Counted from the first letter of the stretch, positions 3,443-54,558 are shown. The stretch: 64,000 nucleotides of DNA from Solirubrobacteraceae bacterium (GCA_024711025.1 JANJTP010000019.1:10005-74004), one strand, 5' to 3'. Made by a program: numbers and translations. Notes: generated by a model not told the origin, from the letters alone.

Positions 3443-3529
<87 letters not shown>

Positions 3530-3601: not shown

Positions 3602-3674
3602 GCCGCCATCGTCTAGGGGACTAGGACGCCGCCCTCTCACGGCGGAAACCGGGGTTCGAATCCCCGTGGCGGTA
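3602..3674 (+). tRNA. tRNA-Glu (anticodon CUC)
   Basis: GCCGCCA-TC-GTCTAGGGGACTAGGAC-G-CCGCC-CTCTCAC-GGCGG-AAAC-CGGGG-TTCGAAT-CCCCG-TGGCGGT-A. The cloverleaf folds with a G1:U72 wobble and is very close to canonical bacterial tRNA-Glu (GTCTAG..GGAC D-arm, CACGGCGG anticodon arm). Confidence 0.9.
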
Positions 3675-35936: not shown

Positions 35937-38297
35937 ATGCTCGCTCACAGACACGGCACGCCACGGAAGCGGCGATGGTTGGTGACGGCGCCGCTCGCCG
36001 CTCTGGCGGCGGTCGCGATCGCACCGACCGCCCAGGCGGGCGTGCCCGGCTACCAGGAGCGTGTGATCGGCGGTCATCCGCCCGACATGTTCACGACGAA
36101 CGTCCCGTACGTCGCCTGGCGCGGCGAGCAGGTGCGCGCCGTCAAGTGCGACGACAGCCTGCGCGACGGCGACGGGAACCTGCGCGACAGCGCGAGCGTC
36201 GACGTGCTCGTCGAGTCGTGGTCCGGCCCCGGCCGTGACCCGCAGGTCGAGGCGGGGACGGTCGACTCGCTGTTCTGGTCCTCGGACCGCAAGCCGTGCG
36301 TGCGATTCGACATGGTCTCTTCCGACGCGGGCCTCGCGCGCGTGAAGCTCGTCGTCAGCGACGAGGGCAAGGTGCCGATCGTCAAGCACCAGTTCCTGTT
36401 CATCTGGCTGTCGCTCGGCAACGTGGCGATCGACGAGGTCGGCGCGAACGACCCGACCGGCGCGCAGCCGGCCGGCTCGTATGCCGAGGTCGGCGACCCC
36501 GCCGGCGACGGCAACTTCAACGCCGGCTCCAAGCCGGGGCGCGTGCAGGTGCAGGTGACGGGCACGTTCCCGCATCCGCTTGCGCCGGGCGGCACGTTCA
36601 CGCTGCCCAGGGACTGGCCGGCGCTGGCGAACGCGCTGGCGACCGACAACAACCCCTACAACGACCCCGACGCCGATCGCTGGGACATCCACGACGACCA
36701 GGCGGCGGGCGACCGGCACGTCATCGGTGGGTTCTGCCCAAGCGGGAGCTCGTCCACCAACGACGACGTCGACAACTGCCGAGTCGACCTCGGCTCGAGC
36801 GAGCTCGGCCCGTTCTCGAACGTCTTCGGCTCCGGCGTACAGGCCGGCGGTCCGTTCGACCCGGCGCGTCCCGCAACGCTGCTGAGCAACGGGACCCTCG
36901 ACTCAGGCGATGCGCCGATGCCGGCGACGCGCGTCGACGTGGAGATCGCGCCGAACTCCGGCGCGGCCGGCGACATCAGCGGCGTCGGAACGCTGACGAA
37001 GGTCGACAAGGGCGACGTGTACAGCCGTGACGGCAACGGAACCATCGCGCCGCACAACCTGTTCGCGCCGTACTACGACCAGTGGATCCCGGCGACCGCC
37101 GTCACGGATGCCGGCTATCTGGAGGGATCCGGGATCGACGGGCCGCAGAAGGGGAACAACTTCGAGGGGTTCCTCGTCGGCGGTCTCTACGACAACTGGT
37201 CCACCAAGGAGCTGCGCCGAGCGCTGGACGGCCCGACGAGCTGCAACAAGTACGTGGACTTCCGCTACTCGCTGATCGACGGGCGCGGCCCGTACGACGT
37301 GCCGCGGCTCAAGCCGTACGGCCCGCAGCGCGTGGCGGTCTACACCGACGAGCACGGCGAGGCCCAGGTGGCCTTCAACCCGAACCGGGGGTTCTACTGG
37401 GACAGCCTGCCGGGAGCGATCCGCAACGACAACCGCGGTTGCGACCTGCAGGACGTGGACGTGCTCGGCACCGCCGCGATCACCGCGACGGCGCGCTACC
37501 CGTACCAGCCGGTCGACGACGGCCCGAGGGTCTCGGCGACGATCCACAAGACGGTCCACAACGAGTTCGACAAGTCGCTCAGCTACTGGCCGAAGGGCCC
37601 GGGCGCGGCGAACGAGAACGCGCGGATCGTCGTGGTCCACGCCAACGACGTCGACGGCAGGCCGTTCTCGCACGAGACGGTTTGCTTCTACATCGACGAC
37701 GAGGCGGACGGCTATCGCGGGTTCGCCGGTGAGACCGGCCCGGCCGGCCACAGGGTCCGGATCGACGACGGGTACTCGCCCGTGCCGGTCGGGGACATCT
37801 GCCGCACTCTCGACCAGAACGGGAACGCGGCGATCGAGGTGTTCAACAGCGATCCCCAGAACGTGAACGTCATCGCGGAGTTCGCGGACGAGGGGCTGCT
37901 GCGGGACATCGACGTGCAGTTCGGCAGGCCGGGCTCGAGCGGCGGGACGCCGCCGAGCGGTGACAACCCGTGCCCCGTCAGCCTGAACGGCTGCGGGACG
38001 CCGACGCCGGAGCAGATCGTCGCGACGGCCGGTGCCAAGAGCGGCGCGGCGCTGATCGGCGCGACGACGAAGGCGAAGCCGAGGGCGCGGCATCTCGCCG
38101 TGGCACGGCTGTCGCGGACGCGCGGCGGCAAGCGCGTGCTCGTCGTTCGCGTGACCTCGCCGAGGCGGACCGAGCGCATCTCGGTGCGTGCTCGCAAGCT
38201 CCGGGCGACGCGTACGGTTCGCACGAACCGGCTCGTGCGCGTCAAGCACCTGAAGCTCCCCGCGAAGGGGAAGGTGACGGTCAGGCTCGCGCGCTGA
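35937..38297 (+). CDS. large secreted protein of unknown function (786 aa) with basic beta-strand-like C-terminal tail
   Basis: In-frame part of ORF 35724..38297(+). ATG 35937 is preceded by AAAGGAGGAG. Signal peptide ...APLAALAAVAIAPTAQA. Composition is non-biased (many W/Y/F/N/D) with no motif I recognise. The tail reads KAKPRARHLAVARLSRTRGGKRVLVVRVTSPRRTERISVRARKLRATRTVRTNRLVRVKHLKLPAKGKVTVRLAR. Confidence 0.8.
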   Translation: MLAHRHGTPRKRRWLVTAPLAALAAVAIAPTAQAGVPGYQERVIGGHPPDMFTTNVPYVAWRGEQVRAVKCDDSLRDGDGNLRDSASVDVLVESWSGPGRDPQVEAGTVDSLFWSSDRKPCVRFDMVSSDAGLARVKLVVSDEGKVPIVKHQFLFIWLSLGNVAIDEVGANDPTGAQPAGSYAEVGDPAGDGNFNAGSKPGRVQVQVTGTFPHPLAPGGTFTLPRDWPALANALATDNNPYNDPDADRWDIHDDQAAGDRHVIGGFCPSGSSSTNDDVDNCRVDLGSSELGPFSNVFGSGVQAGGPFDPARPATLLSNGTLDSGDAPMPATRVDVEIAPNSGAAGDISGVGTLTKVDKGDVYSRDGNGTIAPHNLFAPYYDQWIPATAVTDAGYLEGSGIDGPQKGNNFEGFLVGGLYDNWSTKELRRALDGPTSCNKYVDFRYSLIDGRGPYDVPRLKPYGPQRVAVYTDEHGEAQVAFNPNRGFYWDSLPGAIRNDNRGCDLQDVDVLGTAAITATARYPYQPVDDGPRVSATIHKTVHNEFDKSLSYWPKGPGAANENARIVVVHANDVDGRPFSHETVCFYIDDEADGYRGFAGETGPAGHRVRIDDGYSPVPVGDICRTLDQNGNAAIEVFNSDPQNVNVIAEFADEGLLRDIDVQFGRPGSSGGTPPSGDNPCPVSLNGCGTPTPEQIVATAGAKSGAALIGATTKAKPRARHLAVARLSRTRGGKRVLVVRVTSPRRTERISVRARKLRATRTVRTNRLVRVKHLKLPAKGKVTVRLAR

Positions 38298-40208: not shown

Positions 40209-40781
40209 TCAGGCGTCCGGCGCTTCGTCGCGCGAAGCCCCGGGCCGCCAGAGCGGCTCCTCGCCGCTGTTCGCCCCGCGGCTGAGGATGAACAGCAGGT
40301 CCGAGAGGCGGTTGAGGTAGCGCACGATCTCGGGGTTGGCGCCCTCGACGAGCAGCGCGCGGCGCTCGGCGCGGCGGCAGATCGTGCGGCAGACGTGCAG
40401 GTGGGCCGCGGCGCGCGTGCCGCCGGGCAGCACGAACGAGCGCAGCGGCTCGAGGCCCGCGTTCACCTCGTCGCAGCGCTGCTCGAGCCAGGCGACTTGC
40501 TCGGGCTGCGCTCGCAGCCGCTCGCGACCGCCGGCGCCCTCCGGCACCGACAGGTCGGCGCCGAGGTCGAACAGGTCGTTCTGGATGCGCCGCAGCCAGC
40601 CCGAGTAGTGCTCCGGCATGCCGTCGGCCGTCAACGCGAGGCCGATCTGCGCGTTGAGCTCGTCGACCGTGCCGTAGGCCTCGATGCGCGGGTCGGTCTT
40701 CGGCACGCGGCTCATGTCGCCGAGGTGCGTCTCGCCCGCGTCGCCCAGCCGGGTGTAGATCCGCGTCAGGTTCACCCTCAT
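40209..40781 (-). CDS. PduO-type ATP:cob(I)alamin adenosyltransferase
   Basis: In-frame part of ORF 40209..40991(-) from ATG 40781 (190 aa). IYTRLGDAGETHL, YGTVDELNAQIG, IQNDLFDLGADL, FVLPGG. Confidence 0.9.
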   Translation of the reverse strand: MRVNLTRIYTRLGDAGETHLGDMSRVPKTDPRIEAYGTVDELNAQIGLALTADGMPEHYSGWLRRIQNDLFDLGADLSVPEGAGGRERLRAQPEQVAWLEQRCDEVNAGLEPLRSFVLPGGTRAAAHLHVCRTICRRAERRALLVEGANPEIVRYLNRLSDLLFILSRGANSGEEPLWRPGASRDEAPDA

Positions 40782-40811
40782 GGCGCCGAGCGTAGCGGCC
40801 GGGTATCGTGC

Positions 40812-40985
40812 GCGCTTCGAGGGTCGGTGGTCAAGGGAAGTCCGGTGCGAATCCGGCGCGGACCCGCCACTGTGACCGGGGTCAAGCCCACCGCATGCCG
40901 AGAGGCGGCCACTGGGACGCGACAGCGTTCCGGGAAGGCGCGGGAGGACGGCCCGGGAGCCAGGAGACCTGCCTCCGGCCCGCCA
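40812..40985 (+). promoter_or_regulatory. cobalamin (AdoCbl) riboswitch
   Basis: Plus strand: ...GGTCGGTGGTCAAGGGAAGTCCGGTGCGAATCCGGCGCGGACCCGCCACTGTGACCGGGG...GCCACTGGGA...GGGAAGGCG...AGCCAGGAGACCTGCC. This holds the conserved GGTGnnnAAGGGAA, CCGGTGnGAAnCCGG, B12-box-like GCCACTG and AGCCAGGAGACCTGCC blocks in canonical order. It ends ~35 nt before ATG 41018. Confidence 0.9.
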
Positions 40986-41017
40986 ACGCATACGCCCTCG
41001 TGGAAAGGGGTGGCTTC

Positions 41018-42199
41018 ATGGCCCGCAGTCTCTCTCGCCTCCTCGCAGGAGGTCTCCTGCTCCTCCTCGCGCTCGCCGCGCCCGCCGGCGCGCAGGCACC
41101 GTCGCTGACCGTCCGCGTCGAGGGCGACGCGGACACGCTGCTCGCGCAGACGACGGTGCCGGTGACGGGCGATCCCGTGGTCCGCGGCGGCAACGCCTGC
41201 GACGGGGACAGCGCCCTCGCCGCGCTCGACCGCGCGACCGCCGGCGCCTGGGCGGGTACCTGGAACGCCGGCTTCGGCGACTGGGAGCTGACGGAGATTC
41301 GCGGCGAGGTCCACTCGTTCAGCGCGCCGAGCTACTGGTCGTTCTTCCGCAACGAGCGCCCCGCCGACCTCGGCGTCTGCGGCCAGAAGGTGCAGTCGGG
41401 CGACCGCCTGCTGCTCGCGCCCGCGCCGAGCGACTTCAGCGCAGTCGGCGTGCTGTCGCTCGAGGGCGTGCCCGGCCGGGCACGGCCGAATATGCCCTTC
41501 ACCGTCACCGTGACCCGCACGACGACGACCTTCGATCCGCCGGACTACACGGCGACGACGGTCAGCGCGCCCGCCGCCGGCGCCGCGATCTCGCTGCCGG
41601 GCGGGACCACCGTCACGACCGGCGCCGACGGCAAGGCGCAGGTCACGCTGACGGCCGGCGGGCCGGTCGCGCTGCGCGCCTCGCGCACCGGCGACGTCCG
41701 CTCCGCCACCGTCGCCACGTGCGTCAGCGACGGCGCCGACGGGCTCTGCGGCAGCGTGCGACCGGCGCCGCCGGTCGACCGCGAGGCGCCGGTGGGGCGG
41801 ATCTCGGCCTCGCTGGCCGAGAAGCGCGTCTTCCGGCGCGGCCGGGGTCCCCGCCGTCTCGCCGGCGCCGTCGCCGCCGACCCCTCCGGCATTCGCGACG
41901 TCCGCCTGCGGCTGACGCGCCGGGTGCCCCCGGTCAAGTCCGGCAAGCGGCGCTGCACGCACTACCACGAGGTTCGCGAGCGCTGGGTCCGCAGCGGCAC
42001 CTGCGGCGTCGAGGGTGGGCGCTGGTTCTCGGTCGGCGACCGCGCATCCTGGTCGTACCTGCTGCCCGGGCGCCTCGGCCCCGGTCGCTACGTGCTCGAC
42101 GTGCGCGTCGTGGACGGCGCCGGCAACGTCACGGCGATCGGCCGGCGCTCGAGCGATGGCGGCGCGCCCCGCGATCGCGTCATCTTCTACGTGCGATGA
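41018..42199 (+). CDS. secreted DUF4430 (transcobalamin C-terminal-like) domain protein with Ig-like C-terminal region
   Basis: In-frame part of ORF 40808..42199(+) from ATG 41018. Signal peptide ...LLLLLALAAPAGAQA. DUF4430-type pattern (VRVEG..TLL.., CDGDSALAALDRAT, FGDWELTEIRGE...YWSFFRNERPADLGVCGQKVQSGDRLLL). First gene after the riboswitch. Confidence 0.7.
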   Translation: MARSLSRLLAGGLLLLLALAAPAGAQAPSLTVRVEGDADTLLAQTTVPVTGDPVVRGGNACDGDSALAALDRATAGAWAGTWNAGFGDWELTEIRGEVHSFSAPSYWSFFRNERPADLGVCGQKVQSGDRLLLAPAPSDFSAVGVLSLEGVPGRARPNMPFTVTVTRTTTTFDPPDYTATTVSAPAAGAAISLPGGTTVTTGADGKAQVTLTAGGPVALRASRTGDVRSATVATCVSDGADGLCGSVRPAPPVDREAPVGRISASLAEKRVFRRGRGPRRLAGAVAADPSGIRDVRLRLTRRVPPVKSGKRRCTHYHEVRERWVRSGTCGVEGGRWFSVGDRASWSYLLPGRLGPGRYVLDVRVVDGAGNVTAIGRRSSDGGAPRDRVIFYVR

Positions 42200-42250: not shown

Positions 42251-43210
42251 ATGAGACACCCCCGCCGCATCGGCGCTCTTCTCTGCGCCCTGCTCGCCAC
42301 CGCACTCGCCGCGTTGGCGTCCGGCTGCGGCGTCGGGCCGGGGACCACGACCGAGGGCGCCGGCGTCGAGCTGCTCGTAACGCGCGACTTCGGCCGCCAG
42401 GTGATCCTCGACCGCCGGTTCGACGAGCTGCCCGCCTCGGAGACGGTGATGCGCCTGCTGCAGCGCAGCGCCGCGGTGGAGACACGCTACGGAGGCGGCT
42501 TCGTCCAGTGCGTCGACGGCCGCTGCGGTGGCGGCTCGGACGGCCGACGCGACTGGTTCTACTTCGTCAACGGCGTCGAGGCGCCCGCGGGGGCGGCCGC
42601 GACGAAGGTCCGCGCGGGCGATCGGATCTGGTGGGACCTGCGCGACTGGCGCGCGGCGCAGCGTGCCCCCGCCGTCGTCGGCTCTTTCCCCGAGCCCTTC
42701 CTACGCGGGCCGCACGCCGAGCGGCTGGCGGTGCGCGTCGAGTGCGCCGACGTGAAGGCCCCGGCCTGCCGGCGCGTGCGCGCCGAGCTCGTCGCGGCAG
42801 GCGTCGTCGCCGGCACGACCGCGCTGCGCAGCCAGGTGACCGCGGGCGAGACGCTGCGCGTGCTCGTCGGCCCATGGGACGCGCTGCGCGAGGACGAGGC
42901 GCTTCGCCTGCTCGAGGAGGGCCCCCAGGCGAGCGGGGTGTTCGCCGAGCCGCGCGCCGACGGCACCACGATCGCGCTGCTCGACGCGCGCGGGCGCACC
43001 GTGCGCACGCTGGGCGCCGGCAGTGGGCTCGTCGCGGCCGCGCGCCTGGGCCAGGATCCGCCGGTCTGGGCCGTGAGCGGCGTCGGCGCCGCGGGCGTCG
43101 AGGCGGCCGCGCGAGCGTTCGACTCGCGCACGCTGCGGCGGCGCTTCGCGGTGGCGGTCGACGCCTCGGGGCCGCTTGCGCTTCCGCTCGTCCCGGCGAA
43201 GGACGGTTGA
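42251..43210 (+). CDS. DUF4430-domain lipoprotein
   Basis: ORF 42251..43210(+). Signal plus Cys (LAALASGCGVG). DUF4430-type block ETVMRLLQRSAAVETRYGGGFVQCVDGR...DWFYFVNGVEAPAGAAATKVRAGDRIWWDL. Confidence 0.7.
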   Translation: MRHPRRIGALLCALLATALAALASGCGVGPGTTTEGAGVELLVTRDFGRQVILDRRFDELPASETVMRLLQRSAAVETRYGGGFVQCVDGRCGGGSDGRRDWFYFVNGVEAPAGAAATKVRAGDRIWWDLRDWRAAQRAPAVVGSFPEPFLRGPHAERLAVRVECADVKAPACRRVRAELVAAGVVAGTTALRSQVTAGETLRVLVGPWDALREDEALRLLEEGPQASGVFAEPRADGTTIALLDARGRTVRTLGAGSGLVAAARLGQDPPVWAVSGVGAAGVEAAARAFDSRTLRRRFAVAVDASGPLALPLVPAKDG

Positions 43211-44088
43211 TGGGCGCCCCGCGCGCGAGCCCGCTGCACGCGGCGCGCGCCGGCGCGACGATCGCCTACGGGCTGTCGCTCGTCGCGGTCGCGCTCGCGG
43301 GCACGCATCCGCTCGTGCTGGGGACGCTGGCCGTTGCGATCGCGCTCGCCGCGCTGCGCTGTGGCGTCGGCCGCGAGGTCGCACGCGCCGCGCGGCTTGC
43401 GCTGGTGCTCGCCGCGCTGATCGCGCTCGTGAACGCGCTCGTCGTGCGCGAGGGTCTGACCGTCGTGCTGCGACTCGGCGGCGCCGGGCCGCTCGGCGAG
43501 GTCGACGTGACGGCCGAGGCGCTCGTCAGCGGGCTGCTGCTCGGCGGGCGGGTGGTCGTCGTCGTGCTCGCGTTCGCGCTGCTGGCGGCCGTCGTCGATG
43601 CCGATGCCCTGCTGCGCCTGGCGCGCCGGGCATCCTTCCGCTCGGCGCTGACGGCGGTGCTCGCGCTGCGCATCGTGCCGGTCCTCGCGCGCGACGCGCG
43701 GCGGATGGACGAGGCCTGTCGCTGCCGGTCCGACGCGGCGGCGACCGGGACCGCGCGCGGGCGGCTGGCGGTGGTGCGGGCGCTCGCCGCGGGCGCGCTC
43801 GACCGCGCCGTCGACGTGGCCGCGACGCTCGAGCTGCGCGGCTACGCGGCGCGCCGCCCGGCGCCGCGCGAGCGAGGGGAGCCGTGGTCGCGCCACGACC
43901 TGTCCGTCGCCGGCGCCGCCGCCGGGCTGGCCGCGCTCGCGCTCTGGGTCGCGCTCGGCGACGCGGCGGCGATGCGCTCCTACCCGCGGCTCGAGATCGC
44001 GGGCGGCGCGGCTCCCGCGGTGCTCTGCGCCGCGATCGCGCTCGTCGCGCTGGCGCCGCTTGCCGCCCGTCGGGGGATCGCGCGGTGA
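43210..44088 (+). CDS. ECF transporter transmembrane (T) component, CbiQ/EcfT family
   Basis: In-frame part of ORF 42508..44088(+) from ATG 43210 (TGATG overlap), 292 aa, ~5-6 TM. Arg-rich coupling helices (..RIVPVLARDARRMDEA.., ATLELRGY). Confidence 0.75.
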   Translation: MGAPRASPLHAARAGATIAYGLSLVAVALAGTHPLVLGTLAVAIALAALRCGVGREVARAARLALVLAALIALVNALVVREGLTVVLRLGGAGPLGEVDVTAEALVSGLLLGGRVVVVVLAFALLAAVVDADALLRLARRASFRSALTAVLALRIVPVLARDARRMDEACRCRSDAAATGTARGRLAVVRALAAGALDRAVDVAATLELRGYAARRPAPRERGEPWSRHDLSVAGAAAGLAALALWVALGDAAAMRSYPRLEIAGGAAPAVLCAAIALVALAPLAARRGIAR

Positions 44089-45752
44089 GCGCGCTCAGGC
44101 TCGAGCGCTTCTCGTACACCTACCCGGGTGCCGAGACGCCGGCGCTGCGCGACGTGAGCCTCGTAGTCGAGCCCGGGGAGTTCGTCGTCCTCGCGGGGCT
44201 GTCGGCCTCGGGCAAGTCGACGCTGATCCGTGCCGGCTGCGGACTCGTCCCGCACTTCCACGGCGGCACGGCCTCGGGGCGAGTGACGTGCGTCGGCCTC
44301 GACACGCGTGAGCACGGCCCCGGCGATCTGGCGAGAGCCTGCGGCACGCTGCTGCAGGATCCCGAGACGCAGGTCGTCATGGGGACCGTCCGCGCGGAGA
44401 TCGCGTTCCCGCTCGAGAACGCCGGCCTGCGCGCGGCGGCGGTCGCGCGCGGGGTCGAGGAGGCGGCGCTCGCCCTCGGAGTGGCCGACCTGCTCGACCG
44501 CTCGACGCGCGAGCTGTCGGGCGGCGAGCTTCAGCGGGTCGCGCTCGCGGCCGCGCTCGCCGCGCGACCGGCGCTCGTGCTGCTCGACGAGCCGACGTCG
44601 CAGCTCGACCCGGTCGCGGGCGACGAGCTGATCTGGCTGCTGAGGCGGCTCAACGAGGAGTGGGGCACCGCCGTCGTGCTCGCCGAGCACCGCCTGGAGC
44701 GCTGCCTGGCGCATGCCGACCGGGCGATCGTGCTCGAGGACGGCGCCCTCGTCTGCGACGGCCCGCCGCGGGCGATGCTCGAGTGGGCCGCCGACCGGGC
44801 TCCGGCGCTGCAGACGCCGGCGGCCAGGCTGTTCGCCCACGCCGGGCTGCGCCCCGCGCCGGCGGGCGTCAAGGAGGCCCGCGCGACGCTCCGCGCTCAC
44901 GGCCTGCTGGACGGCGCGGCCGGCCCGGACGGCGCCGGCTCCGCCGGCGACCCGGAGGCCGGGGACGCCGGCGCGCCGCGCGCGACCGGCGCCTGGCGCC
45001 GGCTGACGGGTCGAGGCGATCGGATTCCCACGGCGCTGCGTGCCCGCGGGCTGTGGCACGAGCTGACCGCCGGACGCGCGATCCTGCGCGGCGTCGACCT
45101 GCGCCTGCGGCCCGGCGAGCGGGTCGCGCTGATGGGCCGCAACGGCGCCGGCAAGTCGACGCTGCTGCGCCACCTGGCGGGTCTGCAGGAGCCGACCCGC
45201 GGACGCGTCGAGTCCGCGGGGCGCGTCGCGCTGCTGCTCCAGCACCCGGGCGACTACCTGCTGCACGAGCGGGTCGCCGACGAGGCCTCGTCCGCGGCGC
45301 TTGCCGCGGTCGGGCTCACCGGGCTCGACGAGCGCCACCCACGCGACCTGTCGGGCGGTCAGCGCCAGCGGCTCGCCCTGGCCGTCGTCCTCGGCGACGG
45401 TGACGAGCGGCCCGCGGCGCTGCTGCTCGACGAGCCGACCCGCGGGATGGACCGCGCGGCCAAGGGCGACCTTGCGCGGCGACTGCGGGCGATCGGCGCG
45501 CAGGGGACGGCGGTGCTCGTCGCCACGCACGACGCCGAGTTCGCCGCGGCGCTCGCCGAGCGCGTCGTGCTGCTCGCCGACGGGCGGCCGATCGCCGACG
45601 CCCCGGCGCGCGAGGTCCTGGCCGGCGGCTGGCACTTCGCCACCGAGACGGCGCGGATCCTCGGCGGCCGGCCCGCCGCCCGCCCCGCCCTTGTCGCAGA
45701 GGAGGGCGGGGACCTGCTCCGCGCCCGGATGACCGTGGAGGCAACGCCATGA
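44085..45752 (+). CDS. fused duplicated ECF/ABC ATPase (EcfA-EcfA', CbiO-like)
   Basis: In-frame part of ORF 43176..45752(+) from GTG 44085 (GTGA overlap). There are two complete cassettes. Cassette 1: Walker A GLSASGKST, signature LSGGELQ, Walker B LLDEPTS. Cassette 2: Walker A GRNGAGKST, signature LSGGQRQ, Walker B LLLDEPTRG. Confidence 0.9.
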   Translation: MSALRLERFSYTYPGAETPALRDVSLVVEPGEFVVLAGLSASGKSTLIRAGCGLVPHFHGGTASGRVTCVGLDTREHGPGDLARACGTLLQDPETQVVMGTVRAEIAFPLENAGLRAAAVARGVEEAALALGVADLLDRSTRELSGGELQRVALAAALAARPALVLLDEPTSQLDPVAGDELIWLLRRLNEEWGTAVVLAEHRLERCLAHADRAIVLEDGALVCDGPPRAMLEWAADRAPALQTPAARLFAHAGLRPAPAGVKEARATLRAHGLLDGAAGPDGAGSAGDPEAGDAGAPRATGAWRRLTGRGDRIPTALRARGLWHELTAGRAILRGVDLRLRPGERVALMGRNGAGKSTLLRHLAGLQEPTRGRVESAGRVALLLQHPGDYLLHERVADEASSAALAAVGLTGLDERHPRDLSGGQRQRLALAVVLGDGDERPAALLLDEPTRGMDRAAKGDLARRLRAIGAQGTAVLVATHDAEFAAALAERVVLLADGRPIADAPAREVLAGGWHFATETARILGGRPAARPALVAEEGGDLLRARMTVEATP

Positions 45753-47335
45753 GCTGGGAGCTCGCTTCGCTGATCGTCCTGGCGACCGCGCTCGTCGCCG
45801 GCTTCGGCTGGTACGAGCGAGCCCACCCCGGCTCGCGGATGCTGGCGCTGGTGGCGACGCTCGCCGCGCTCGCGGCGCTCGGGCGGATCGCGTTCGCGCC
45901 GCTGCCGAACGTCAAGCCGACGACGGACATCGTCGTCATCGCGGGCGTCGCGCTCGGCGGCGCTCCCGGCTTCGTCGTCGGCGCGGTCGCGGCGCTCGCC
46001 TCGAACGTGCTGTTCGGACAGGGGCCGTGGACCCCGTGGCAGATGGTCGCCTGGGGCCTGTGCGGGCTGCTCGGTGCGGTGGTCGGACGGATCGCCGGCC
46101 GCTCGCTCGGGCGCCTGCCGCTCGCGGTGCTGTGCGGCGCGGCCGGCCTGGCGTTCGGGGCGATCATGGACGCCTCGATGTGGGCGACGTACAGCGGCGA
46201 GCAGACGCTCGGCCAGTACCTGGCGATCAGCGGCACGTCGTTGCCGTTCAACCTCGCGCACGCCGTCGGGAACGTCGTCTTCGCGCTTGCGTTCGGGCCG
46301 GTGCTGCTGCGCGCGCTCTTGCGCTACCGCGTACGCCTGACACACACCTGGCTCGACGCCCCGGCGCCGGTGAGCGGCCCCGTCGCGACCGGCGGCGTCG
46401 GGACGGCGGCGCTGGCGGCGCTCTTGGCGCTGGCGCTGGCCGGCGGCGCCCTGCTCGCGACGGCGCCGCCGGCGAGCGCGGCCGCGAGCCCCGCGCAGCG
46501 CGCGGCGACGTACCTGGCGCGTGCGCAGAACGCCGACGGTGGCTGGGGCGCCGTCCCGCGGGCGCGCACGAGCGCGGCGCAGACCTCGTGGACCGTCGTC
46601 GGCCTCGCCGCCGCCGGCTACGACCCGTTGCGCGTGCGAACGCGGGGCCGCACGCCGCTCGCGCTGCTGCGCTCGTACGCGTCGCGCTCGCGCGCCACCG
46701 CCGACCTTCAGCGCACCGCGATCGCGCTGGCCGCGGTCGGCCTGACCGTGCCTCGGGACCTGCGGGCGCGGCTGCGCGCCGACCAGCGGCGCGACGGCTC
46801 GTGGGACGGGCTCGTGAACCTGACCTCGTTCGGGATCATCGCCCTGCGCGCAAGCGGCAGCTCGACGAGCGACGGCGCGGTGCGCCGCGCTCGCTCGTGG
46901 CTGGCGCGCCGACAGAGCCGCGACGGGGGCTTCAACTTCGCCGGCGCCGGGCGCAGCGGAATCGACGACACCGCCGCCGCCGTGCAGGCGCTCGTCGCGT
47001 CGGGGCTGCGGCGCTCGCGCGCGGTACGTCGTGCGGCTGCCTGGATCGCCGCACGGCAGAACCCCGACGGGGGCTTCGCGCTGACGCCCCCGGGCTCGTC
47101 CAACGCCCAGTCGACGGCCTATGCGGTCCAGGCGCTCGTCGCCGCCGGGCGCGACCCCGACCGCGTGCGCCGGCCGGGGTCGCGGACGCCGCTCGCTTAC
47201 CTGCGCTCGCTGCAGCAGTCGAGCGGGCTGGTGCGCTACAGCCGCACCAGCGCGCAGACGCCGATCTGGGTGACCTCGCAGGCGCTCGCGGCGTTCGCGC
47301 GGCGGCCGCTGCCGTTCCGGCTGAGGCGGCGCTGA
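45749..47335 (+). CDS. fusion protein: ECF S-component-like membrane domain + prenyltransferase/squalene-oxidase-repeat (alpha/alpha toroid) domain
   Basis: ORF 45749..47335(+) (ATGA overlap). The first ~200 aa are polytopic with an S-component-like pattern (PNVKPTTDIVVIAGVALGGAPGFVVGAVAALASNVLFGQGPWTPWQMVAWGLCG). Then comes a TM/linker and four Q..DGG(W/F) repeats (AQNADGGWG, DQRRDGSWD, RQSRDGGFN, RQNPDGGFA). Confidence 0.7.
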   Translation: MSWELASLIVLATALVAGFGWYERAHPGSRMLALVATLAALAALGRIAFAPLPNVKPTTDIVVIAGVALGGAPGFVVGAVAALASNVLFGQGPWTPWQMVAWGLCGLLGAVVGRIAGRSLGRLPLAVLCGAAGLAFGAIMDASMWATYSGEQTLGQYLAISGTSLPFNLAHAVGNVVFALAFGPVLLRALLRYRVRLTHTWLDAPAPVSGPVATGGVGTAALAALLALALAGGALLATAPPASAAASPAQRAATYLARAQNADGGWGAVPRARTSAAQTSWTVVGLAAAGYDPLRVRTRGRTPLALLRSYASRSRATADLQRTAIALAAVGLTVPRDLRARLRADQRRDGSWDGLVNLTSFGIIALRASGSSTSDGAVRRARSWLARRQSRDGGFNFAGAGRSGIDDTAAAVQALVASGLRRSRAVRRAAAWIAARQNPDGGFALTPPGSSNAQSTAYAVQALVAAGRDPDRVRRPGSRTPLAYLRSLQQSSGLVRYSRTSAQTPIWVTSQALAAFARRPLPFRLRRR

Positions 47336-50935: not shown

Positions 50936-52624
50936 ATGATGCCCCGCTCCCAGGCCCTCGCGGCGCTCGCCCACGAGCAGTTCGACGTCGTCGTGGTGGG
51001 CGGCGGGATCACCGGGGCCGGTGTCGCGCTCGACGCGGCCGCGCGCGGGTTCTCGGTCGCGCTCGTCGAGCGCGGCGACTACGCCTCGGGCACGTCGAGT
51101 CGCTCGTCGAAGCTCGTCCACGGCGGCCTGCGCTACCTGCAGAGCTTCGACCTCGGCCTGGTGCGCGAGGCCCTGCTCGAGCGCCGGCTGATGGTGGAGC
51201 TCGCGCCGCACCTCGTCCGCCCGCTGGCGCTGCTCGTCCCCGCGTTCGACGGGCAGCGGCCGGATCGGATGATGGGCGCGGGGCTCAGCCTGTACGACGT
51301 CATGTCGGTGGACCGGCGCCGGGGCCGCAGGCGCCGGCACGACGAGGACGACGGCGACGGGGCGCTGCGCGACTGGTCGCCCGAGCGTCACCGGATCGTC
51401 GACGGCGAGGAGGTCGTGCGCCGCCTGCCCGCGCTCGCCGCGCGCCGTCCGACGGCGGGCTATCTCTTCTACGACTGCCAGACCGACGACGCGCGGCTCG
51501 TGCTGACGGTGCTCGGCGAAGCCGAGCGGTTCGGCGCGGTCTGCGCCAATCGCCTCGAGGTGACCGAGCTCGTCGAGCGCGGAGGGCGGGCGAGCGGCGT
51601 GCGCGTGCGCGACGGGGAGAGCGGCGAGCGGCTCGACGTGCGGGCGGCGAGCGTCGTCAACGCGACCGGCGTGTGGGCCGACCGGCTGCGCCCGGAGGAG
51701 CTGCACGACGAGGCCGAGCTGCCGCGGATCCGCCCGAGCCGCGGCACCCACATCACCCTGCCGCGCGAGCTGCTGGAGCTGAACGACGGCGCCGTCGTGC
51801 CGGCGGGGGAGGGGCGCTCGATCTTCGCGCTCCCGTGGCTCGGCGCGACGCTGATCGGCACGACCGACGACGACCACGACGGCGCGCTGGATCACGTCAG
51901 GCCGCAGGCGAGCGACATCGCCTATCTGCTGGCGGCGACCAACGCGTATTTCGCCACGGACCTCGGTCCCTCCGACCTCAGCGGCGCCTTCGCCGGCGTG
52001 CGACCGCTGATCTCGACCGGCGACGCGCGCAGGTCGGTCGACATCTCGCGCAAGGCCGAGCTCTACGAGACGAGCAGCGGCATGATCACGATCACGGGCG
52101 GAAAGCTCACGACGTGGCGGCGGATGGCGAAGCTGGTCGTCGACCGGCTCGTCGAGCGGGAGGCCCGCGACGCGCCGTGCCGCACCCACGAGATCCCGCT
52201 CGGCCAGCCGGTCCCGCCGGAGGAGCTCCCGCGTGTCTCGGGCGTCGCCGAAGCCGCATACGGGCATCTCGCCGGGCGCTACGGCCACGTGGCCCGCGAC
52301 GTCGTCGCGCTCGCGGCGCAGGCGCCGGCGCTGGCGGCGCCGATCGTCGCGGGACCGCAGCCGGACCTGCTCGCCGAGGCGGTTCAGGCAGCCCGTCGCG
52401 AGCAGGCGCGCAGCGTCGGCGACGTGCTGCTGCGGCGTACGCGCCTCGGGCTGCTCGCCGCACCGGCGCTGACGCGCGACGACGCCGTCGCGCTGCGCGT
52501 CGCTCGTGCGATGGCGCCGGAGCTGGGCTGGGACGCCGCGCGCACCCGGCGAGCCGCAGCCGACTTCCTCGACGAGGCGGCGGCCGAGGGGATCGCGCCG
52601 CAGGCCGCGAGCGTGGCGGCGTGA
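50936..52624 (+). CDS. glpD: FAD-dependent glycerol-3-phosphate dehydrogenase
   Basis: In-frame part of ORF 50747..52624(+) from ATG 50936. DVVVVGGGITGAGVALDAAARG, ASGTSSRSSKLVHGGLRY, GGKLTTWR, and the C-terminal alpha-helical GlpD domain. Confidence 0.9.
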   Translation: MMPRSQALAALAHEQFDVVVVGGGITGAGVALDAAARGFSVALVERGDYASGTSSRSSKLVHGGLRYLQSFDLGLVREALLERRLMVELAPHLVRPLALLVPAFDGQRPDRMMGAGLSLYDVMSVDRRRGRRRRHDEDDGDGALRDWSPERHRIVDGEEVVRRLPALAARRPTAGYLFYDCQTDDARLVLTVLGEAERFGAVCANRLEVTELVERGGRASGVRVRDGESGERLDVRAASVVNATGVWADRLRPEELHDEAELPRIRPSRGTHITLPRELLELNDGAVVPAGEGRSIFALPWLGATLIGTTDDDHDGALDHVRPQASDIAYLLAATNAYFATDLGPSDLSGAFAGVRPLISTGDARRSVDISRKAELYETSSGMITITGGKLTTWRRMAKLVVDRLVEREARDAPCRTHEIPLGQPVPPEELPRVSGVAEAAYGHLAGRYGHVARDVVALAAQAPALAAPIVAGPQPDLLAEAVQAARREQARSVGDVLLRRTRLGLLAAPALTRDDAVALRVARAMAPELGWDAARTRRAAADFLDEAAAEGIAPQAASVAA

Positions 52625-54558
52625 TGGCGGGCGGGACCGGGCTTCGGGTGCCGGGGCGCCGCCGCGCCGGCCTCGCGCTCTCGTTGCTGGGGCTGCTTGC
52701 GCTCGCGTCCGCCGGCGCGCCGGCGTCCGCGCTCGGGGGGTTCTTCGCCGGCCGGCCGGTCGACGGGCCCGCACCGGAGGTCGTCGCGGTCGGCGACGTC
52801 GATCTGGGCCGCGACGGAGGCGGCGGCGTGGCATACGTGCGCCGCGACGGTGGGGAGAGCCATGCGTTCCTGTCGCTGCTGCGCGAAGGGCTGCCGCAGC
52901 CGGGCGCGCGCGTCGACGCCGGTCACGGGCCGATCGTCGGACGTCCCGCGCTCGCGGTCGGCGAGGGCGGGCGGCTCGCGGTGCTGTGGGCCGACGCGCA
53001 GGGCGTCTGGGCGAGGGTGCGCTCGACCGGGAGCGGGCCGCTCGGTGCGCCACAGCGCCTCGGGGGGCCGGGCGCGGCAGGTCCCGTCGCGGACATGACC
53101 GTGAGCGGCGTCGCGTACGCGGCTTGGAGCGAGAACGGCGACGTGCGTGCCGCCTACCTGCCGCGCCTGGCGCAGGCCTTCACCGCATACCCGGCTCCGC
53201 TCGACGCCGACCCGGCGAGGCTCGCGGGCACAGGCGCCGGCGCCTCGCTGCGCCCGCGCCTGGCGACCGCGGCCGACGGCGTGGGTCTTGCGGTGTGGGG
53301 CGAGCTCGACGGCTCGGGGGTCTCGCGGATCCGGGTCAGGCGCCTGGTCAAGGAGAGGCTGTCGGCGGTCGCTGCGGACGCGACGCCCGCCGGGCTGGGC
53401 GGCCGGAACGTCGGCTTCGCCGACCTCCCGGACGTCGCGCTCGAGGACGACTCGAGCTTCGCCTGGGTGGTCTTCCGGCAGGCGATGGCGGATGGCTCGG
53501 GGCGCGTGCGCGCGGTCGTCCGGCGCCTGCGCGGCTCGGCGTTCGACGAGGCGGCGACGTTCGACGGCGCGCCGTCGGCCGGCGCGGTGGAGACGCCGCG
53601 CGTCGCGGCCAACGGCCGTGGCTGGGGCATCGCGACCGTCGAGGTGCCGGGAGGGACGGTGCTCGCGGCGGCGATCCGCGATGAGGGGCCGGCGGCGCCG
53701 CAGGCGATCGGCCCTGGTGCGGGCGTCGTGCCCTCGCCGGTGGCCGCCTACGCGCAGAGCTACGACGGCGTCGTCGCCTGGCTGCAGGCGAGCGGGCCGG
53801 GCACACCGGCGGCGCTCCGCGCGCGAGCGCTCGAGGACGCGGTGGCGGCGACCGCCGCGCCCATCTTCGGCGCCGCGGTCACGCTGTCGGACCCGGCGGG
53901 CGGCGGAGTCGATCCGCAGGCCGGTCACGACGCGGGCTCCAGTCGCGCCGGCGACGTCCTGATCGCCTACGTGGAGGGAGCCCCGGGCGCCCGGCGCCTC
54001 TCGGTGGCGGCCTACGACCAGCCGCCGCGCGCGCCCGATCCGCGCGCTACGCGCGGCTGGCGGCGCACGCCTCGCCCGGCGCTGGGATGGGCGTCGCCGC
54101 CGGACGTCTGGGGCGGGCTCGTCTACCGCGTGCTCGTCGACCGGCGGCCGGTCGGGGACACGGGCCGCGAGACGCTGAGGCCCGCAGCGCCGCTCGCCGA
54201 CGGGACGCACCGCTGGCAGGTCGTCGCCATCGACCGCCGCGGACAGCAGGCGGCCTCTGAGGTGCAGACGCTGCGCGTCGACACGACCCGGCCGACGCTC
54301 GGCCTGCGAGTGCTCGGCACGCGGCGCGTCGGAGCGCGACTGCGTCTGGCGGTGCGAGCGGGCGACGGACGCGGCTCGGGCGTGCGTGAGGCTCGCCTGA
54401 GCCTCGGTGACCGCTCGGCTTCGCGAGTCGTCGCCCCGGGCCGTGTCGTGCAGCACGCCTACCGGCGGGCCGGGCGCTACCGCCTCGTCGTCACCGCGCA
54501 CGACCGCGCCGGCAATGCGGCCACGCTGACGCGTACGATCGTGGTGAGGGGCTCGTGA
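52624..54558 (+). CDS. secreted protein of unknown function with Ig/PKD-like C-terminal modules
   Basis: In-frame part of ORF 51673..54558(+) from ATG 52624 (TGATG overlap with glpD). Signal peptide ...ALSLLGLLALASAGAPASA. The C-terminus shows beta-sandwich-like repeats (THRWQVVAIDRRGQQAASEVQTLRVDTTRP; YRLVVTAHDRAGNAATLTRTIVV). Confidence 0.65.
   Translation: MAGGTGLRVPGRRRAGLALSLLGLLALASAGAPASALGGFFAGRPVDGPAPEVVAVGDVDLGRDGGGGVAYVRRDGGESHAFLSLLREGLPQPGARVDAGHGPIVGRPALAVGEGGRLAVLWADAQGVWARVRSTGSGPLGAPQRLGGPGAAGPVADMTVSGVAYAAWSENGDVRAAYLPRLAQAFTAYPAPLDADPARLAGTGAGASLRPRLATAADGVGLAVWGELDGSGVSRIRVRRLVKERLSAVAADATPAGLGGRNVGFADLPDVALEDDSSFAWVVFRQAMADGSGRVRAVVRRLRGSAFDEAATFDGAPSAGAVETPRVAANGRGWGIATVEVPGGTVLAAAIRDEGPAAPQAIGPGAGVVPSPVAAYAQSYDGVVAWLQASGPGTPAALRARALEDAVAATAAPIFGAAVTLSDPAGGGVDPQAGHDAGSSRAGDVLIAYVEGAPGARRLSVAAYDQPPRAPDPRATRGWRRTPRPALGWASPPDVWGGLVYRVLVDRRPVGDTGRETLRPAAPLADGTHRWQVVAIDRRGQQAASEVQTLRVDTTRPTLGLRVLGTRRVGARLRLAVRAGDGRGSGVREARLSLGDRSASRVVAPGRVVQHAYRRAGRYRLVVTAHDRAGNAATLTRTIVVRGS

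What the first reader, a model, noticed from the sequence alone, without database searches (positions are those of the whole stretch)
45749..47335. Possible split bacterial transcobalamin: alpha/alpha-toroid fused to the ECF S-component, beta-domain (DUF4430) supplied in trans
Established: mammalian transcobalamin, intrinsic factor and haptocorrin sandwich B12 between an N-terminal alpha6-alpha6 barrel and a C-terminal beta domain. The bacterial DUF4430 family is annotated as transcobalamin-like C-terminal domain. Seen: this operon encodes two DUF4430 proteins, plus an S-component whose extracytoplasmic C-terminus is a prenyltransferase/squalene-oxidase-repeat toroid (four Q..DGG(W/F) repeats). 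That toroid has the same fold class as the transcobalamin alpha domain. Inference: the two halves of a transcobalamin-like clamp are encoded separately and may assemble around B12 at the transporter mouth, handing the vitamin to the S-component.
Basis: partly seen in the sequence, partly recalled or inferred. Interest (0 to 1): 0.65.

Follow-up and report, generated by a model that had tools for sequence, protein, structure and literature searches.

The report
B12 importer with tethered capture domain
This is a vitamin-B12-regulated ECF-type import operon whose membrane B12-binding subunit carries an extra outward-facing barrel domain and is always encoded with two transcobalamin-beta-like surface proteins; such a capture apparatus was predicted for bacteria in 2007 but has never been tested, and this fused form has not been described.

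Summary
ORF 45749-47335 is a CbrT-type (vitamin B12) ECF S-component, followed by one extra transmembrane helix and a 12-helix alpha/alpha toroid with four Q..DG(G/S)(W/F) repeats, predicted to face outward. It ends a translationally coupled operon: cobalamin riboswitch, DUF4430 protein A, DUF4430 lipoprotein B, EcfT, fused EcfA-A', S::toroid. This layout is kept in 72/72 informative Thermoleophilia loci. The riboswitch was present in 15/15 loci tested.

B's N-domain matches the haptocorrin, transcobalamin and intrinsic-factor beta domains best. The toroid matches terpene cyclases and prenyltransferase beta subunits best. No transcobalamin alpha domain is in its Foldseek top 50, and none appears by sequence.

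The strongest new evidence for toroid-DUF4430 cooperation comes from a syntenic sister operon. There the toroid is fused to the A-type DUF4430 protein instead of to S (at least 21 protein clusters).

The idea of bacterial toroid plus beta-domain B12 scavengers in CbiO/CbiQ operons dates from Burroughs et al. 2007. A split alpha/beta pair in an ECF operon was proposed for L. sakei in 2019. The S-component fusion is therefore a new variant. Assembly around B12 and hand-off to S remain untested.

The parts
40804..40990 (+). Cobalamin (AdoCbl) riboswitch aptamer, 27 nt upstream of the ORF-A start codon
   Evidence: Rfam RF00174, 81.6 bits, E 1.5e-18, full-length match 1-189. The same element precedes the operon in 15/15 related loci tested, and in L081, L082 and L085.
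41018..42199 (+). ORF-A: secreted protein (393 aa) with a signal peptide, an A-type DUF4430/SLBB domain (about aa 25-140) and Ig-like domains
   Evidence: N-terminal hydrophobic segment. Pfam DUF4430 E 0.0025, below threshold, and weak Big_13. A-only profile against the B DUF4430 profile by hhalign: 96.5%, E 7.7e-10. 33% identical (E 4e-22) to the N-terminal half of the A::toroid fusion P0325, whose DUF4430 passes the Pfam threshold. An A-type domain is present upstream of B in 70-71 of 72 loci.
42251..43210 (+). ORF-B: probable lipoprotein (319 aa) with a transcobalamin-beta-like DUF4430 domain (about aa 38-135) and a conserved alpha/beta C-terminal domain
   Evidence: Pfam DUF4430 1.1e-11. 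Conserved Gly25-Cys26 after the signal h-region. AlphaFold2 pLDDT 89.9, with a hairpin after the helix. Foldseek top hits are 3U7Z, 4KKI, 2BB6, 5NO0 and 2PMV. Present in 72/72 informative loci.
43210..44088 (+). EcfT (CbiQ-family) transmembrane coupling subunit; its start ATG overlaps the ORF-B stop (TGATG)
   Evidence: Pfam CbiQ 3.5e-13. NCBIfam ECF_T_CbiQ 7e-9, below cut-off. Junction read.
44085..45752 (+). Fused EcfA-EcfA' double ATPase; GTGA overlap with ecfT
   Evidence: Pfam ABC_tran, two stretches, 1.8e-45. NCBIfam ECF_ATPase_1/2, 1e-81 and 4e-78. Junction read.
45749..46336 (+). S::toroid protein, residues 1-196: extra N-terminal TM0 plus the six-helix CbrT-type S-component core; ATGA overlap with the ATPase gene
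   Evidence: The only PDB hit is 6FNP (ECF-CbrT), E 7.8e-14 / 1.5e-18. The motifs PNV.P.TDI and F(N/D)L.HA.GN are shared with CbrT. Helices 3-25, 29-48, 58-69, 71-89, 95-116, 122-148 and 154-196.
46337..46486 (+). Residues 197-246: flexible cytoplasmic linker, extra TM7 (aa 217-237), short outer linker
   Evidence: Hydrophobic segment 217-237. Helix 217-237 flanked by pLDDT<50 segments at 205-218 and 233-243. The toroid-less orthologue S285 in L082 lacks this helix.
46487..47335 (+). Residues 247-528 plus stop: extracytoplasmic 12-helix alpha/alpha toroid with four Q..DG(G/S)(W/F) repeats and an invariant S-G-I-D-D-T-A motif (aa 403-409)
   Evidence: Pfam SQHop_cyclase_C 4.8e-17, Prenyltrans 3e-11, TED 6.5e-5. 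Motifs located. 12 helices, pLDDT 96-98. Foldseek top hits are terpene cyclases and prenyltransferase beta. DDTA aligns to the DVDDTA of squalene-hopene cyclase. D406 is invariant.
40209..40781 (-). Divergently transcribed PduO-type cob(I)alamin adenosyltransferase (context, not part of the operon)
   Evidence: Pfam Cob_adeno_trans 1.7e-61. Start codon read. Found next to the operon in 34 of 80 related loci by tblastn, and in L082.

Best explanation
This is a riboswitch-repressed, dedicated ECF-type corrinoid (vitamin B12) importer of Thermoleophilia. It has an EcfT, a fused EcfA-A' ATPase and a CbrT-family S-component.

The S-component has gained one extra transmembrane helix (TM7). That helix carries a 12-helix alpha/alpha toroid to the outer face of the membrane.

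Two co-transcribed envelope proteins carry transcobalamin-beta-type (DUF4430/SLBB) domains. A is secreted. B is probably lipid-anchored.

Proposed mechanism:
1. When AdoCbl is low, the riboswitch allows expression.
2. A and/or B capture corrinoid in the cell envelope.
3. The loaded beta-domain docks on the conserved polar mouth of the tethered toroid. This either completes a transcobalamin-like two-part site or lets the toroid strip the ligand.
4. The corrinoid is thereby released right next to the CbrT-type pocket.
5. The S-domain topples against EcfT, ATP hydrolysis resets the cycle, and the neighbouring PduO enzyme adenosylates the vitamin.
6. The disordered linkers on both sides of TM7 would give the slack needed for toppling.

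Shown here: the identity of every part, the predicted topology, operon conservation, riboswitch linkage, the TC-beta fold of B, and the alternative fusion of the toroid to A. Inferred: corrinoid binding by A, B and the toroid, their contact, and the hand-off.

The confidence of 0.6 refers to the claim that the toroid and the DUF4430 proteins cooperate physically in corrinoid capture for a CbrT-type ECF importer. That it is a B12 ECF importer I put at about 0.9. A true transcobalamin-like sandwich I put at about 0.4.
For: B12 link:
- Riboswitch in the window, in 15/15 related S::toroid loci tested, and in three operons of other architecture.
- The S-domain's only solved relative is CbrT of 6FNP, which transports cobalamin and cobinamide (PMC5997447).
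- A PduO adenosyltransferase is adjacent.

Operon:
- Stop and start codons overlap at B/T, T/AA' and AA'/S.
- The order A-B-T-AA'-S::toroid is kept in 72/72 loci with enough upstream DNA.

Outside location of the toroid:
- One extra TM lies after a core that is known to end in the cytoplasm.
- The loop charges follow the positive-inside rule.

Beta half:
- Protein B's best structural matches are the beta domains of haptocorrin, transcobalamin and intrinsic factor, and bacterial DUF4430 3U7Z.
- B has the post-helix hairpin that contacts B12 in transcobalamin (PMC1796856, PMC13385337).

Partnership of toroid and DUF4430:
- In the syntenic locus L082 (same pntAB/PduO flanks) the toroid sits on the A-type protein, S lacks both toroid and TM7, and B is still present.
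- This A::toroid fusion forms at least 21 protein clusters on contigs up to 533 kb.
- A third architecture, three tandem toroids, is again behind a cobalamin riboswitch with CbiQ, AA', a CbrT-like S and CobA.
- Among the 150 closest toroid cluster representatives, about 54 are S fusions.
Against: - The toroid is not specifically transcobalamin-alpha-like. The Foldseek top 50 are terpene cyclases and prenyltransferase beta subunits. There is no Pfam Cobalamin_bind hit at E<=10 and no TC/IF/HC hit with a family profile at E<=10.
- No invariant His or Cys that could ligate cobalt is present in the toroid.
- L. delbrueckii CbrT binds cobalamin at nanomolar Kd on its own (PMC5997447), so an accessory clamp is not required for affinity.
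- The relative position of toroid and S-core in the model is undefined (pTM 0.62, disordered linkers).
- No complex prediction, ligand docking or binding data could be obtained.
- In the A::toroid fusion an Ig-like spacer separates the two domains, unlike transcobalamin's direct linker.
Confidence: 0.6

Rival explanations
1. The DUF4430 proteins alone are the corrinoid binders. The toroid is only a docking or scaffolding platform, or a cell-wall or isoprenoid-lipid anchor. It positions the complex and never touches B12.
For: The toroid's nearest structural and sequence relatives bind isoprenoids, not corrinoids. It has no transcobalamin-alpha signal. The isolated human TC beta domain has been crystallised with cyanocobalamin bound (5NP4, listed). 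The toroid can sit on S, on A, or occur alone or in tandem, as a movable adaptor might.
Against: This toroid clade is tied to cobalamin-riboswitch ECF operons in every architecture examined. The residues at the N-termini of its inner helices are invariant or nearly so (W281, N357/T359, D406/D407/T408, Q454/S455/T456), which suggests a conserved ligand site rather than a passive scaffold. Bacterial and animal toroid+SLBB fusions recur (PMC1796856).
Confidence: 0.25
2. The system imports a different tetrapyrrole or corrinoid precursor, for example heme as proposed for the L. sakei Lsa1836-1840 ECF system, or only cobinamide or other cobamides. On this view the transcobalamin analogy is misleading as to the substrate.
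For: Verplaetse et al. (bioRxiv 10.1101/864751) linked an ECF operon with alpha-like and beta-like proteins to heme uptake. CbrT is promiscuous, taking Cbl and Cbi (PMC5997447).
Against: A cobalamin riboswitch precedes every operon tested. Cobalamin adenosyltransferases (PduO or CobA) are adjacent. The S-domain shares CbrT's two most conserved motifs.
Confidence: 0.08
3. The toroid is an extracytoplasmic enzyme descended from class II terpene cyclases. It retains the acidic DxDD-type motif and acts on an envelope lipid or on the corrinoid itself, rather than serving as a binding half.
For: The invariant D406-D407-T-A aligns with the catalytic DVDDTA of squalene-hopene cyclase. The A::toroid relatives carry a full DVDDTA or DIDDTG. 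The top Foldseek and PDB hits are cyclases.
Against: The domain is a single toroid, not the two-domain cyclase body. The first Asp of the motif is replaced by Gly in this family (S-G-I-D-D-T-A). The equivalent position in the other repeats holds ordinary polar helix-capping residues. The genomic context is purely transport.
Confidence: 0.05

Closest known systems
ECF-CbrT, the vitamin B12 ECF transporter of Lactobacillus delbrueckii (Santos et al. 2018, PMC5997447; PDB 6FNP)
   Same: The S-domain is homologous over all six helices (E 7.8e-14) and shares the PNV.P.TDI and F(N/D)L.HA.GN motifs. It also has an EcfT plus two ATPase domains, and sits next to a PduO adenosyltransferase.
   Different: CbrT is a bare 182-aa S-component that uses a shared ECF module and has no accessory proteins. 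Here the S-component has an extra N-terminal TM, an extra TM7 and a 284-aa outer toroid. The T and AA' subunits are dedicated and the ATPases are fused. Two DUF4430 envelope proteins and a riboswitch are part of the operon.
Bacterial transcobalamin-like SLBB proteins with alpha/alpha toroids in CbiO/CbiQ operons (prediction of Burroughs, Balaji, Iyer, Aravind 2007, PMC1796856)
   Same: Secreted SLBB/DUF4430 domains of the transcobalamin clade, association with an alpha/alpha toroid, a second paralogous SLBB protein in the operon, CbiO- and CbiQ-like genes, and inferred B12 scavenging.
   Different: That paper describes the toroid fused N- or C-terminally to the SLBB protein. A toroid fused to the ECF S-component through an added TM helix is not described there, nor in any paper found here.
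Lactobacillus sakei Lsa1836-1840 ECF-like system (Verplaetse et al. 2019, bioRxiv 10.1101/864751)
   Same: An ECF operon (S, AA', T) with separately encoded secreted proteins modelled as the beta and alpha halves of transcobalamin, proposed to capture the ligand and pass it to the S-component.
   Different: There the alpha-like protein is a free secreted protein and the proposed substrate is heme. Here the toroid is covalently tethered to S, and the operon is under a cobalamin riboswitch.
Mammalian transcobalamin, intrinsic factor and haptocorrin
   Same: The beta-domain fold of protein B matches them best. The toroid has the same 12-helix alpha/alpha barrel class. Both are two-part architectures.
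   Different: In the mammalian proteins both halves lie on one soluble polypeptide, and the alpha domain belongs to Pfam Cobalamin_bind. The window's toroid does not match that family. The mammalian proteins also have no link to a transporter subunit.
Class II terpene cyclases and protein prenyltransferase beta subunits
   Same: They are the closest structural and sequence relatives of the toroid. They share QW-like repeats and a DDTA remnant.
   Different: They are cytoplasmic or membrane-associated enzymes. The cyclases have two toroid domains. They have no transport context. Here the domain is a single extracytoplasmic toroid in a B12 uptake operon.
BtuCD-BtuF (type II ABC B12 importer with a periplasmic binding protein)
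   Same: Functional analogy only: an extracytoplasmic binding protein delivers B12 to an ATP-driven importer.
   Different: The folds of the binding protein and the membrane subunits are unrelated. ECF transporters are generally described as lacking extracytoplasmic binding proteins (stated in 10.1101/864751).

Membership tests
ECF transporter, CbrT (vitamin B12) S-component family | S-component homologous to CbrT over the six-helix core | tested here: met
   The only PDB hit is 6FNP, the 182-aa chain unique to that entry. E 7.8e-14 with the single sequence, aa 31-194 against 11-173. E 1.5e-18 with a profile.
ECF transporter, CbrT (vitamin B12) S-component family | EcfT and two EcfA-type ATPase domains | tested here: met
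   CbiQ 3.5e-13 and two ABC_tran domains at 1.8e-45. ECF_ATPase_1/2 at 1e-81 and 4e-78. The genes are translationally coupled.
ECF transporter, CbrT (vitamin B12) S-component family | Transport of cobalamin/cobinamide | not testable with these tools
   Only indirect evidence is available: the cobalamin riboswitch and the neighbouring PduO gene.
Transcobalamin / intrinsic factor / haptocorrin | N-terminal alpha6-alpha6 domain of the Cobalamin_bind family (PF01122) | tested here: not met
   No PF01122 hit at E<=10. No TC/IF/HC chain at E<=10 with a family profile. None in the Foldseek top 50. Only the fold class is shared (12 helices).
Transcobalamin / intrinsic factor / haptocorrin | Beta domain (DUF4430, CATH 2.170.130.30) with the post-helix hairpin | tested here: met
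   For protein B: Pfam 1.1e-11; Foldseek hits 4KKI, 2BB6, 5NO0 and 2PMV at rmsd 2.4-2.9 A over about 105 columns; hairpin E76-79/E84-88 after helix 66-73. Protein A is supported by profile comparison only.
Transcobalamin / intrinsic factor / haptocorrin | Both domains on one polypeptide, with B12 sandwiched at their interface | tested here: not met
   The domains lie on separate polypeptides in the window. They are fused in relatives (P0325 family), but with an Ig-like spacer between them. Ligand sandwiching is not testable here.
Bacterial transcobalamin-like SLBB/toroid B12-scavenging operons (Burroughs et al. 2007) | Secreted SLBB of the transcobalamin clade, an associated alpha/alpha toroid, a paralogous second SLBB, and CbiO/CbiQ-like genes in one operon | tested here: met
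   Signal peptides on A and B. DUF4430 domains. Toroid. CbiQ and ABC ATPases. The toroid's fusion partner (S) differs from those described in the paper.
Class II terpene cyclase | Catalytic DxDD motif within a two-domain (beta-gamma) body | tested here: not met
   The motif is G-I-D-D-T-A, so the first Asp is missing. There is a single toroid of 284 aa. All NCBIfam cyclase models score far below their cut-offs (55 bits against 323).
SCO2321 family membrane protein (NCBIfam NF053823) | Score above the curated cut-off (300 bits) | tested here: not met
   108.7 bits, E 3e-31. The toroid is related, but the window protein is not a member.

The most novel reading that the evidence does not exclude
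ECF transporters are defined as working without extracytoplasmic binding proteins. Here, and in a large set of actinobacterial relatives, one would use an obligate multi-part surface capture apparatus. Free and lipid-anchored transcobalamin-beta-type domains would load corrinoid onto a toroid tethered to the toppling S-component, forming a transient split 'bacterial transcobalamin' at the transporter mouth. The three interchangeable fusion states of the toroid (on S, on the beta-domain protein, or free/tandem) would then record how the two-domain animal B12 carriers arose.
Probability: 0.4. Interest if true: 0.7.

Novelty: new variant of a known kind. Interest (0 to 1): 0.52.

Why it matters
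If the toroid and the DUF4430 proteins really capture corrinoids and feed the S-component, this would be a binding-protein-assisted ECF transporter, and that would change how the ECF mechanism is pictured. An S-component that must topple while tethered to a 30-kDa ectodomain and two extra helices is an immediate structural question.

It would also give an experimentally tractable bacterial model for the origin of the transcobalamin, intrinsic factor and haptocorrin architecture. Natural 'split', 'fused to the beta domain' and 'fused to the transporter' versions occur in closely related soil Thermoleophilia.

It would further identify how abundant but poorly studied soil Actinomycetota compete for B12.

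If instead the toroid is only a scaffold, the finding remains a well-conserved but ordinary accessory module of a B12 importer.

Tried and rejected
- Sequence routes from the toroid to transcobalamin all failed. These were Pfam at E<=10, single-sequence and profile searches of PDB sequences, and NCBIfam.
- Sequence routes from proteins A and B to solved transcobalamin chains also failed. Only the predicted structure of B made the link.
- Direct BLASTP of A against B gave only a 25-residue match (E 0.007). My first iterated A-type HMM had absorbed B-type domains, which made its hhalign result circular. I rebuilt an A-only alignment and repeated the comparison.
- A linker-joined toroid+DUF4430 chimera as a stand-in for a multimer prediction was considered and not attempted. 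Chimeric rows are not admissible to the structure tool, and a single-sequence model would have been uninformative.
- The rank of transcobalamin among the toroid's Foldseek matches beyond the 50 listed could not be obtained. No model coordinates are returned, so conserved residues could not be mapped in 3D.
- Rodionov et al. 2009 (PMC2612444) is not held in the library.
- Literature searches for DUF4430, SLBB+ECF, 3U7Z and SCO2321-2325 found no experimental work on these proteins.
- Two toroid-only relatives (P0253, P0270) lie on contigs too short to give context.

Full report
**1. What is in the sequence**

The region is a single + strand operon in a very GC-rich genome. The nearest relatives are Solirubrobacterales, Conexibacter and Thermoleophilaceae, class Thermoleophilia.

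The parts, in order, are:
- A cobalamin riboswitch at 40804-40990 (Rfam RF00174, 81.6 bits, full length).
- ORF-A, 41018-42199.
- ORF-B, 42251-43210.
- A CbiQ-family EcfT, 43210-44088.
- A fused double ABC ATPase (EcfA-A'), 44085-45752.
- The flagged ORF, 45749-47335.

The last four genes are linked by overlapping stop and start codons: TGATG, GTGA and ATGA. A PduO-type cob(I)alamin adenosyltransferase is transcribed divergently, starting 23 nt from the riboswitch. The downstream genes are pntAA/AB/B, and the other neighbours are unrelated.

**2. The flagged protein**

*S-component half.* Residues 31-194 match only one solved structure. This is the 182-residue membrane chain unique to 6FNP, the ECF-CbrT vitamin B12 transporter. 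The E-value is 7.8e-14 with the single sequence and 1.5e-18 with a family profile (PMC5997447). The alignment spans the whole S-component core. The two most conserved motifs of the window's family, PNVKPTTDI and FNLAHAVGN, are shared with CbrT.

*Extra helices.* The model shows eight membrane helices: an added N-terminal helix (3-25), the six-helix core, and an added helix at 217-237. The added helix is flanked by low-confidence linkers at 205-218 and 233-243. S-component cores end in the cytoplasm; this is established from ECF complex structures and is my own knowledge. The K/R-rich loops at 24-30, 113-123 and 186-215 agree with that. The single added helix therefore puts the C-terminal domain outside.

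*Toroid half.* The C-terminal domain (about 247-528) has 12 helices at pLDDT 96-98. It matches the squalene-hopene-cyclase, prenyltransferase and TED Pfam models.

**3. The two DUF4430 proteins**

*ORF-B* is a probable lipoprotein, with Gly-Cys conserved after the signal sequence. It has a solid Pfam DUF4430 hit (1.1e-11). Its AlphaFold2 model (pLDDT 89.9) has as best PDB matches:
- the bacterial DUF4430 structure 3U7Z;
- haptocorrin 4KKI;
- bovine and human transcobalamin (2BB6, 5NO0, 5NP4, 4ZRP);
- intrinsic factor (2PMV, 3KQ4).

These matches cover about 105 aligned columns at rmsd 2.4-2.9 A. B also has the beta-hairpin after the helix (strands 76-79 and 84-88). This hairpin defines the transcobalamin clade and contacts B12 (PMC1796856; PMC13385337). 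B's conserved C-terminal domain has only weak BcsB-like matches.

*ORF-A* is secreted. Its N-terminal domain is below the Pfam threshold (18.7 bits against 23.8). Two results nevertheless place it in the family:
- A profile built only from A-type domains of 70 related loci matches the B-type DUF4430 profile at 96.5% probability, E 7.7e-10.
- A's homologue in P0325 passes the Pfam threshold.

**4. Is the arrangement conserved?**

A scan of one genome per species found at least 596 relatives, of which the best 80 were kept. All 80 are Thermoleophilia or unclassified Actinomycetota, and all carry the S::toroid fusion.

- In all 72 loci with enough upstream DNA, B-T-AA'-S::toroid is present in the same order. 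The other eight contigs are cut short.
- An A-type domain gene lies upstream of B in 70-71 of the 72. Sixteen loci have two.
- The cobalamin riboswitch was found at the head of the operon in all 15 loci examined.
- In the clustered protein universe, about 54 of the 150 closest toroid cluster representatives are S fusions. Most of the rest are signal-peptide or TM-anchored toroids.

**5. New evidence that toroid and DUF4430 work together**

One of the closest toroid relatives, P0325 (45% identity in the toroid), has a different N-terminal half. That half is homologous to ORF-A residues 28-229 (33% identity, E 4e-22). It consists of DUF4430 plus a CarboxypepD_reg Ig-like domain.

This A::toroid fusion is not an assembly artefact. 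At least 21 protein clusters share it at 72-79% identity over the full length. They come from several sources, including Solirubrobacteraceae MAG contigs of up to 533 kb.

Its locus L082 is syntenic with the window, with PduO and pntAA/AB/B flanking. It reads:
- cobalamin riboswitch;
- A::toroid;
- a SCO2322-like protein;
- CbiQ;
- AA';
- a CbrT-like S-component without toroid and without TM7;
- PduO, on the opposite strand;
- a clear B orthologue.

So within one orthologous operon the toroid has moved between the S-component and the A-type beta-domain protein.

A third layout (L085) has three tandem toroids, two Cys-rich SCO2322-like proteins, CobA/BtuR, CbiQ, AA' and a CbrT-like S. It too sits behind a cobalamin riboswitch.

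This toroid clade is thus a dedicated part of riboswitch-controlled corrinoid ECF systems. The alternating fusions are the standard argument for a physical partnership.

**6. Where the interpretation falls short**

The toroid is not specifically like the transcobalamin alpha domain.
- The 50 best Foldseek matches are all class II terpene cyclases (8ZGV, 8PAK, 1SQC, MstE) or prenyltransferase beta subunits.
- Pfam Cobalamin_bind gives nothing at E<=10.
- A family profile finds cyclases, prenyltransferases and alpha-2-macroglobulin TED domains among PDB sequences, but no TC, IF or HC.

Only the fold class is shared: a 12-helix alpha/alpha barrel.

The toroid keeps an invariant S-G-I-D-D-T-A. This aligns with the catalytic DVDDTA of squalene-hopene cyclase, and the A::toroid relatives even have DVDDTA. 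The same position in the other repeats holds conserved polar residues: T279/W281, N357/T359 and Q454/S455/T456. I read these as a conserved polar ring at the barrel mouth.

CbrT alone binds cobalamin with nanomolar affinity (PMC5997447), so the accessory module is not needed for affinity as such. Binding, assembly and hand-off could not be tested with the tools available.

**7. Comparison with what is known**

Burroughs et al. 2007 (PMC1796856) already described the following:
- bacterial transcobalamin-clade SLBB domains fused to alpha/alpha toroids in either order;
- a second paralogous SLBB protein in the same operon;
- linkage to CbiO- and CbiQ-like genes;
- a predicted B12-scavenging role;
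- a suggested bacterial origin of animal transcobalamin.

Verplaetse et al. 2019 (bioRxiv 10.1101/864751) proposed separately encoded alpha-like and beta-like halves that feed the S-component of an ECF system in L. sakei, although for heme.

I found no paper describing a toroid fused to the S-component, and no experimental study of any bacterial DUF4430 or toroid protein of this kind. Public annotations call these proteins 'ECF substrate-specific component', 'prenyltransferase beta subunit' or 'hypothetical'.

**8. Verdict**

I rate the claims separately:
- A genuine, strongly conserved, B12-regulated ECF-CbrT-type importer with a tethered extracytoplasmic toroid and two transcobalamin-beta-type envelope proteins: about 0.9.
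- The toroid and the DUF4430 proteins cooperate physically in corrinoid capture: about 0.6. This rests on the fusion evidence.
- They form a true transcobalamin-like sandwich around B12: about 0.4. This is untested.

It is a new variant of a predicted kind, not a new kind.

Noticed in passing
window 46955-46975 (aa 403-409 of the S::toroid protein); also P0325 and L082:8001-9593: The toroid keeps an invariant S-G-I-D-D-T-A that aligns with the catalytic DVDDTA motif of squalene-hopene cyclase. The A::toroid relatives carry a full DVDDTA or DIDDTG. It is unclear whether this is a ligand-contacting remnant or only a helix cap.
   Followed up: partly
window 45749-45823 (aa 1-25): There is an extra, highly conserved N-terminal transmembrane helix (invariant L11, G18, F19, W21, E23) in front of the CbrT-like core. 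CbrT of 6FNP lacks it, but the toroid-less S-components of L082 and L085 have it. Its role is unknown.
   Followed up: partly
window 46133-46135 (Cys129) and 46259-46261 (His171): Cys129, in TM5 of the S-domain, is invariant and has no counterpart in CbrT. His171 is conserved and shared with CbrT's FDLYHAAGN motif. Both are candidate cobalt ligands, by analogy with the Cys ligand of BtuM.
   Followed up: no
window 42671-43210 (ORF-B aa 140-319): The C-terminal alpha/beta domain of the DUF4430 lipoprotein is conserved in all 72 loci. It has no Pfam family and only weak Foldseek matches, to BcsB and to glucuronidase N-domains.
   Followed up: partly
L081:3135-4070, L082:9662-10525, L085:3767-5865: Cys-rich secreted or anchored proteins occur in the operons where the toroid is not on S; one carries the precomputed Pfam label SCO2322. 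By eye their N-terminal region resembles a beta-grasp/DUF4430-like pattern (VxLVVDFGGG...CKI...YWxY...DGDxxGWxWG). This was not tested by profile comparison.
   Followed up: no
P0243, P0249, P0265, P0269, P0289, P0301, P0316, P0349 and similar: There is a longer S::toroid variant of about 590-660 aa with about 100 extra C-terminal residues ending in another hydrophobic segment, so the toroid would be anchored at both ends.
   Followed up: no
L006, L010, L011, L012, L014, L015, L021, L022, L024-L026, L039, L047, L049, L058, L073: Sixteen related operons carry two A-type DUF4430 genes upstream of B, so each has three DUF4430 proteins.
   Followed up: partly
window 3446-3529 (-) and 3602-3674 (+): Two tRNA genes are found on opposite strands. 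Similar tRNA pairs lie upstream of the operon in several related loci (L001, L039).
   Followed up: no
L029:13256-13376; L082:1386-1495: Other riboswitches occur in the neighbourhood of related loci: a c-di-AMP (ydaO) riboswitch in L029, and a SAM riboswitch upstream of a PALP/ThiS gene pair in L082.
   Followed up: no
window 36000-38297 (+) and 52615-54558 (+): Two large, probably secreted proteins flank the region. The first has no Pfam family. The second has Big_13 and PKD Ig-like domains, and ORF-A's C-terminal part also has a weak Big_13 match.
   Followed up: no
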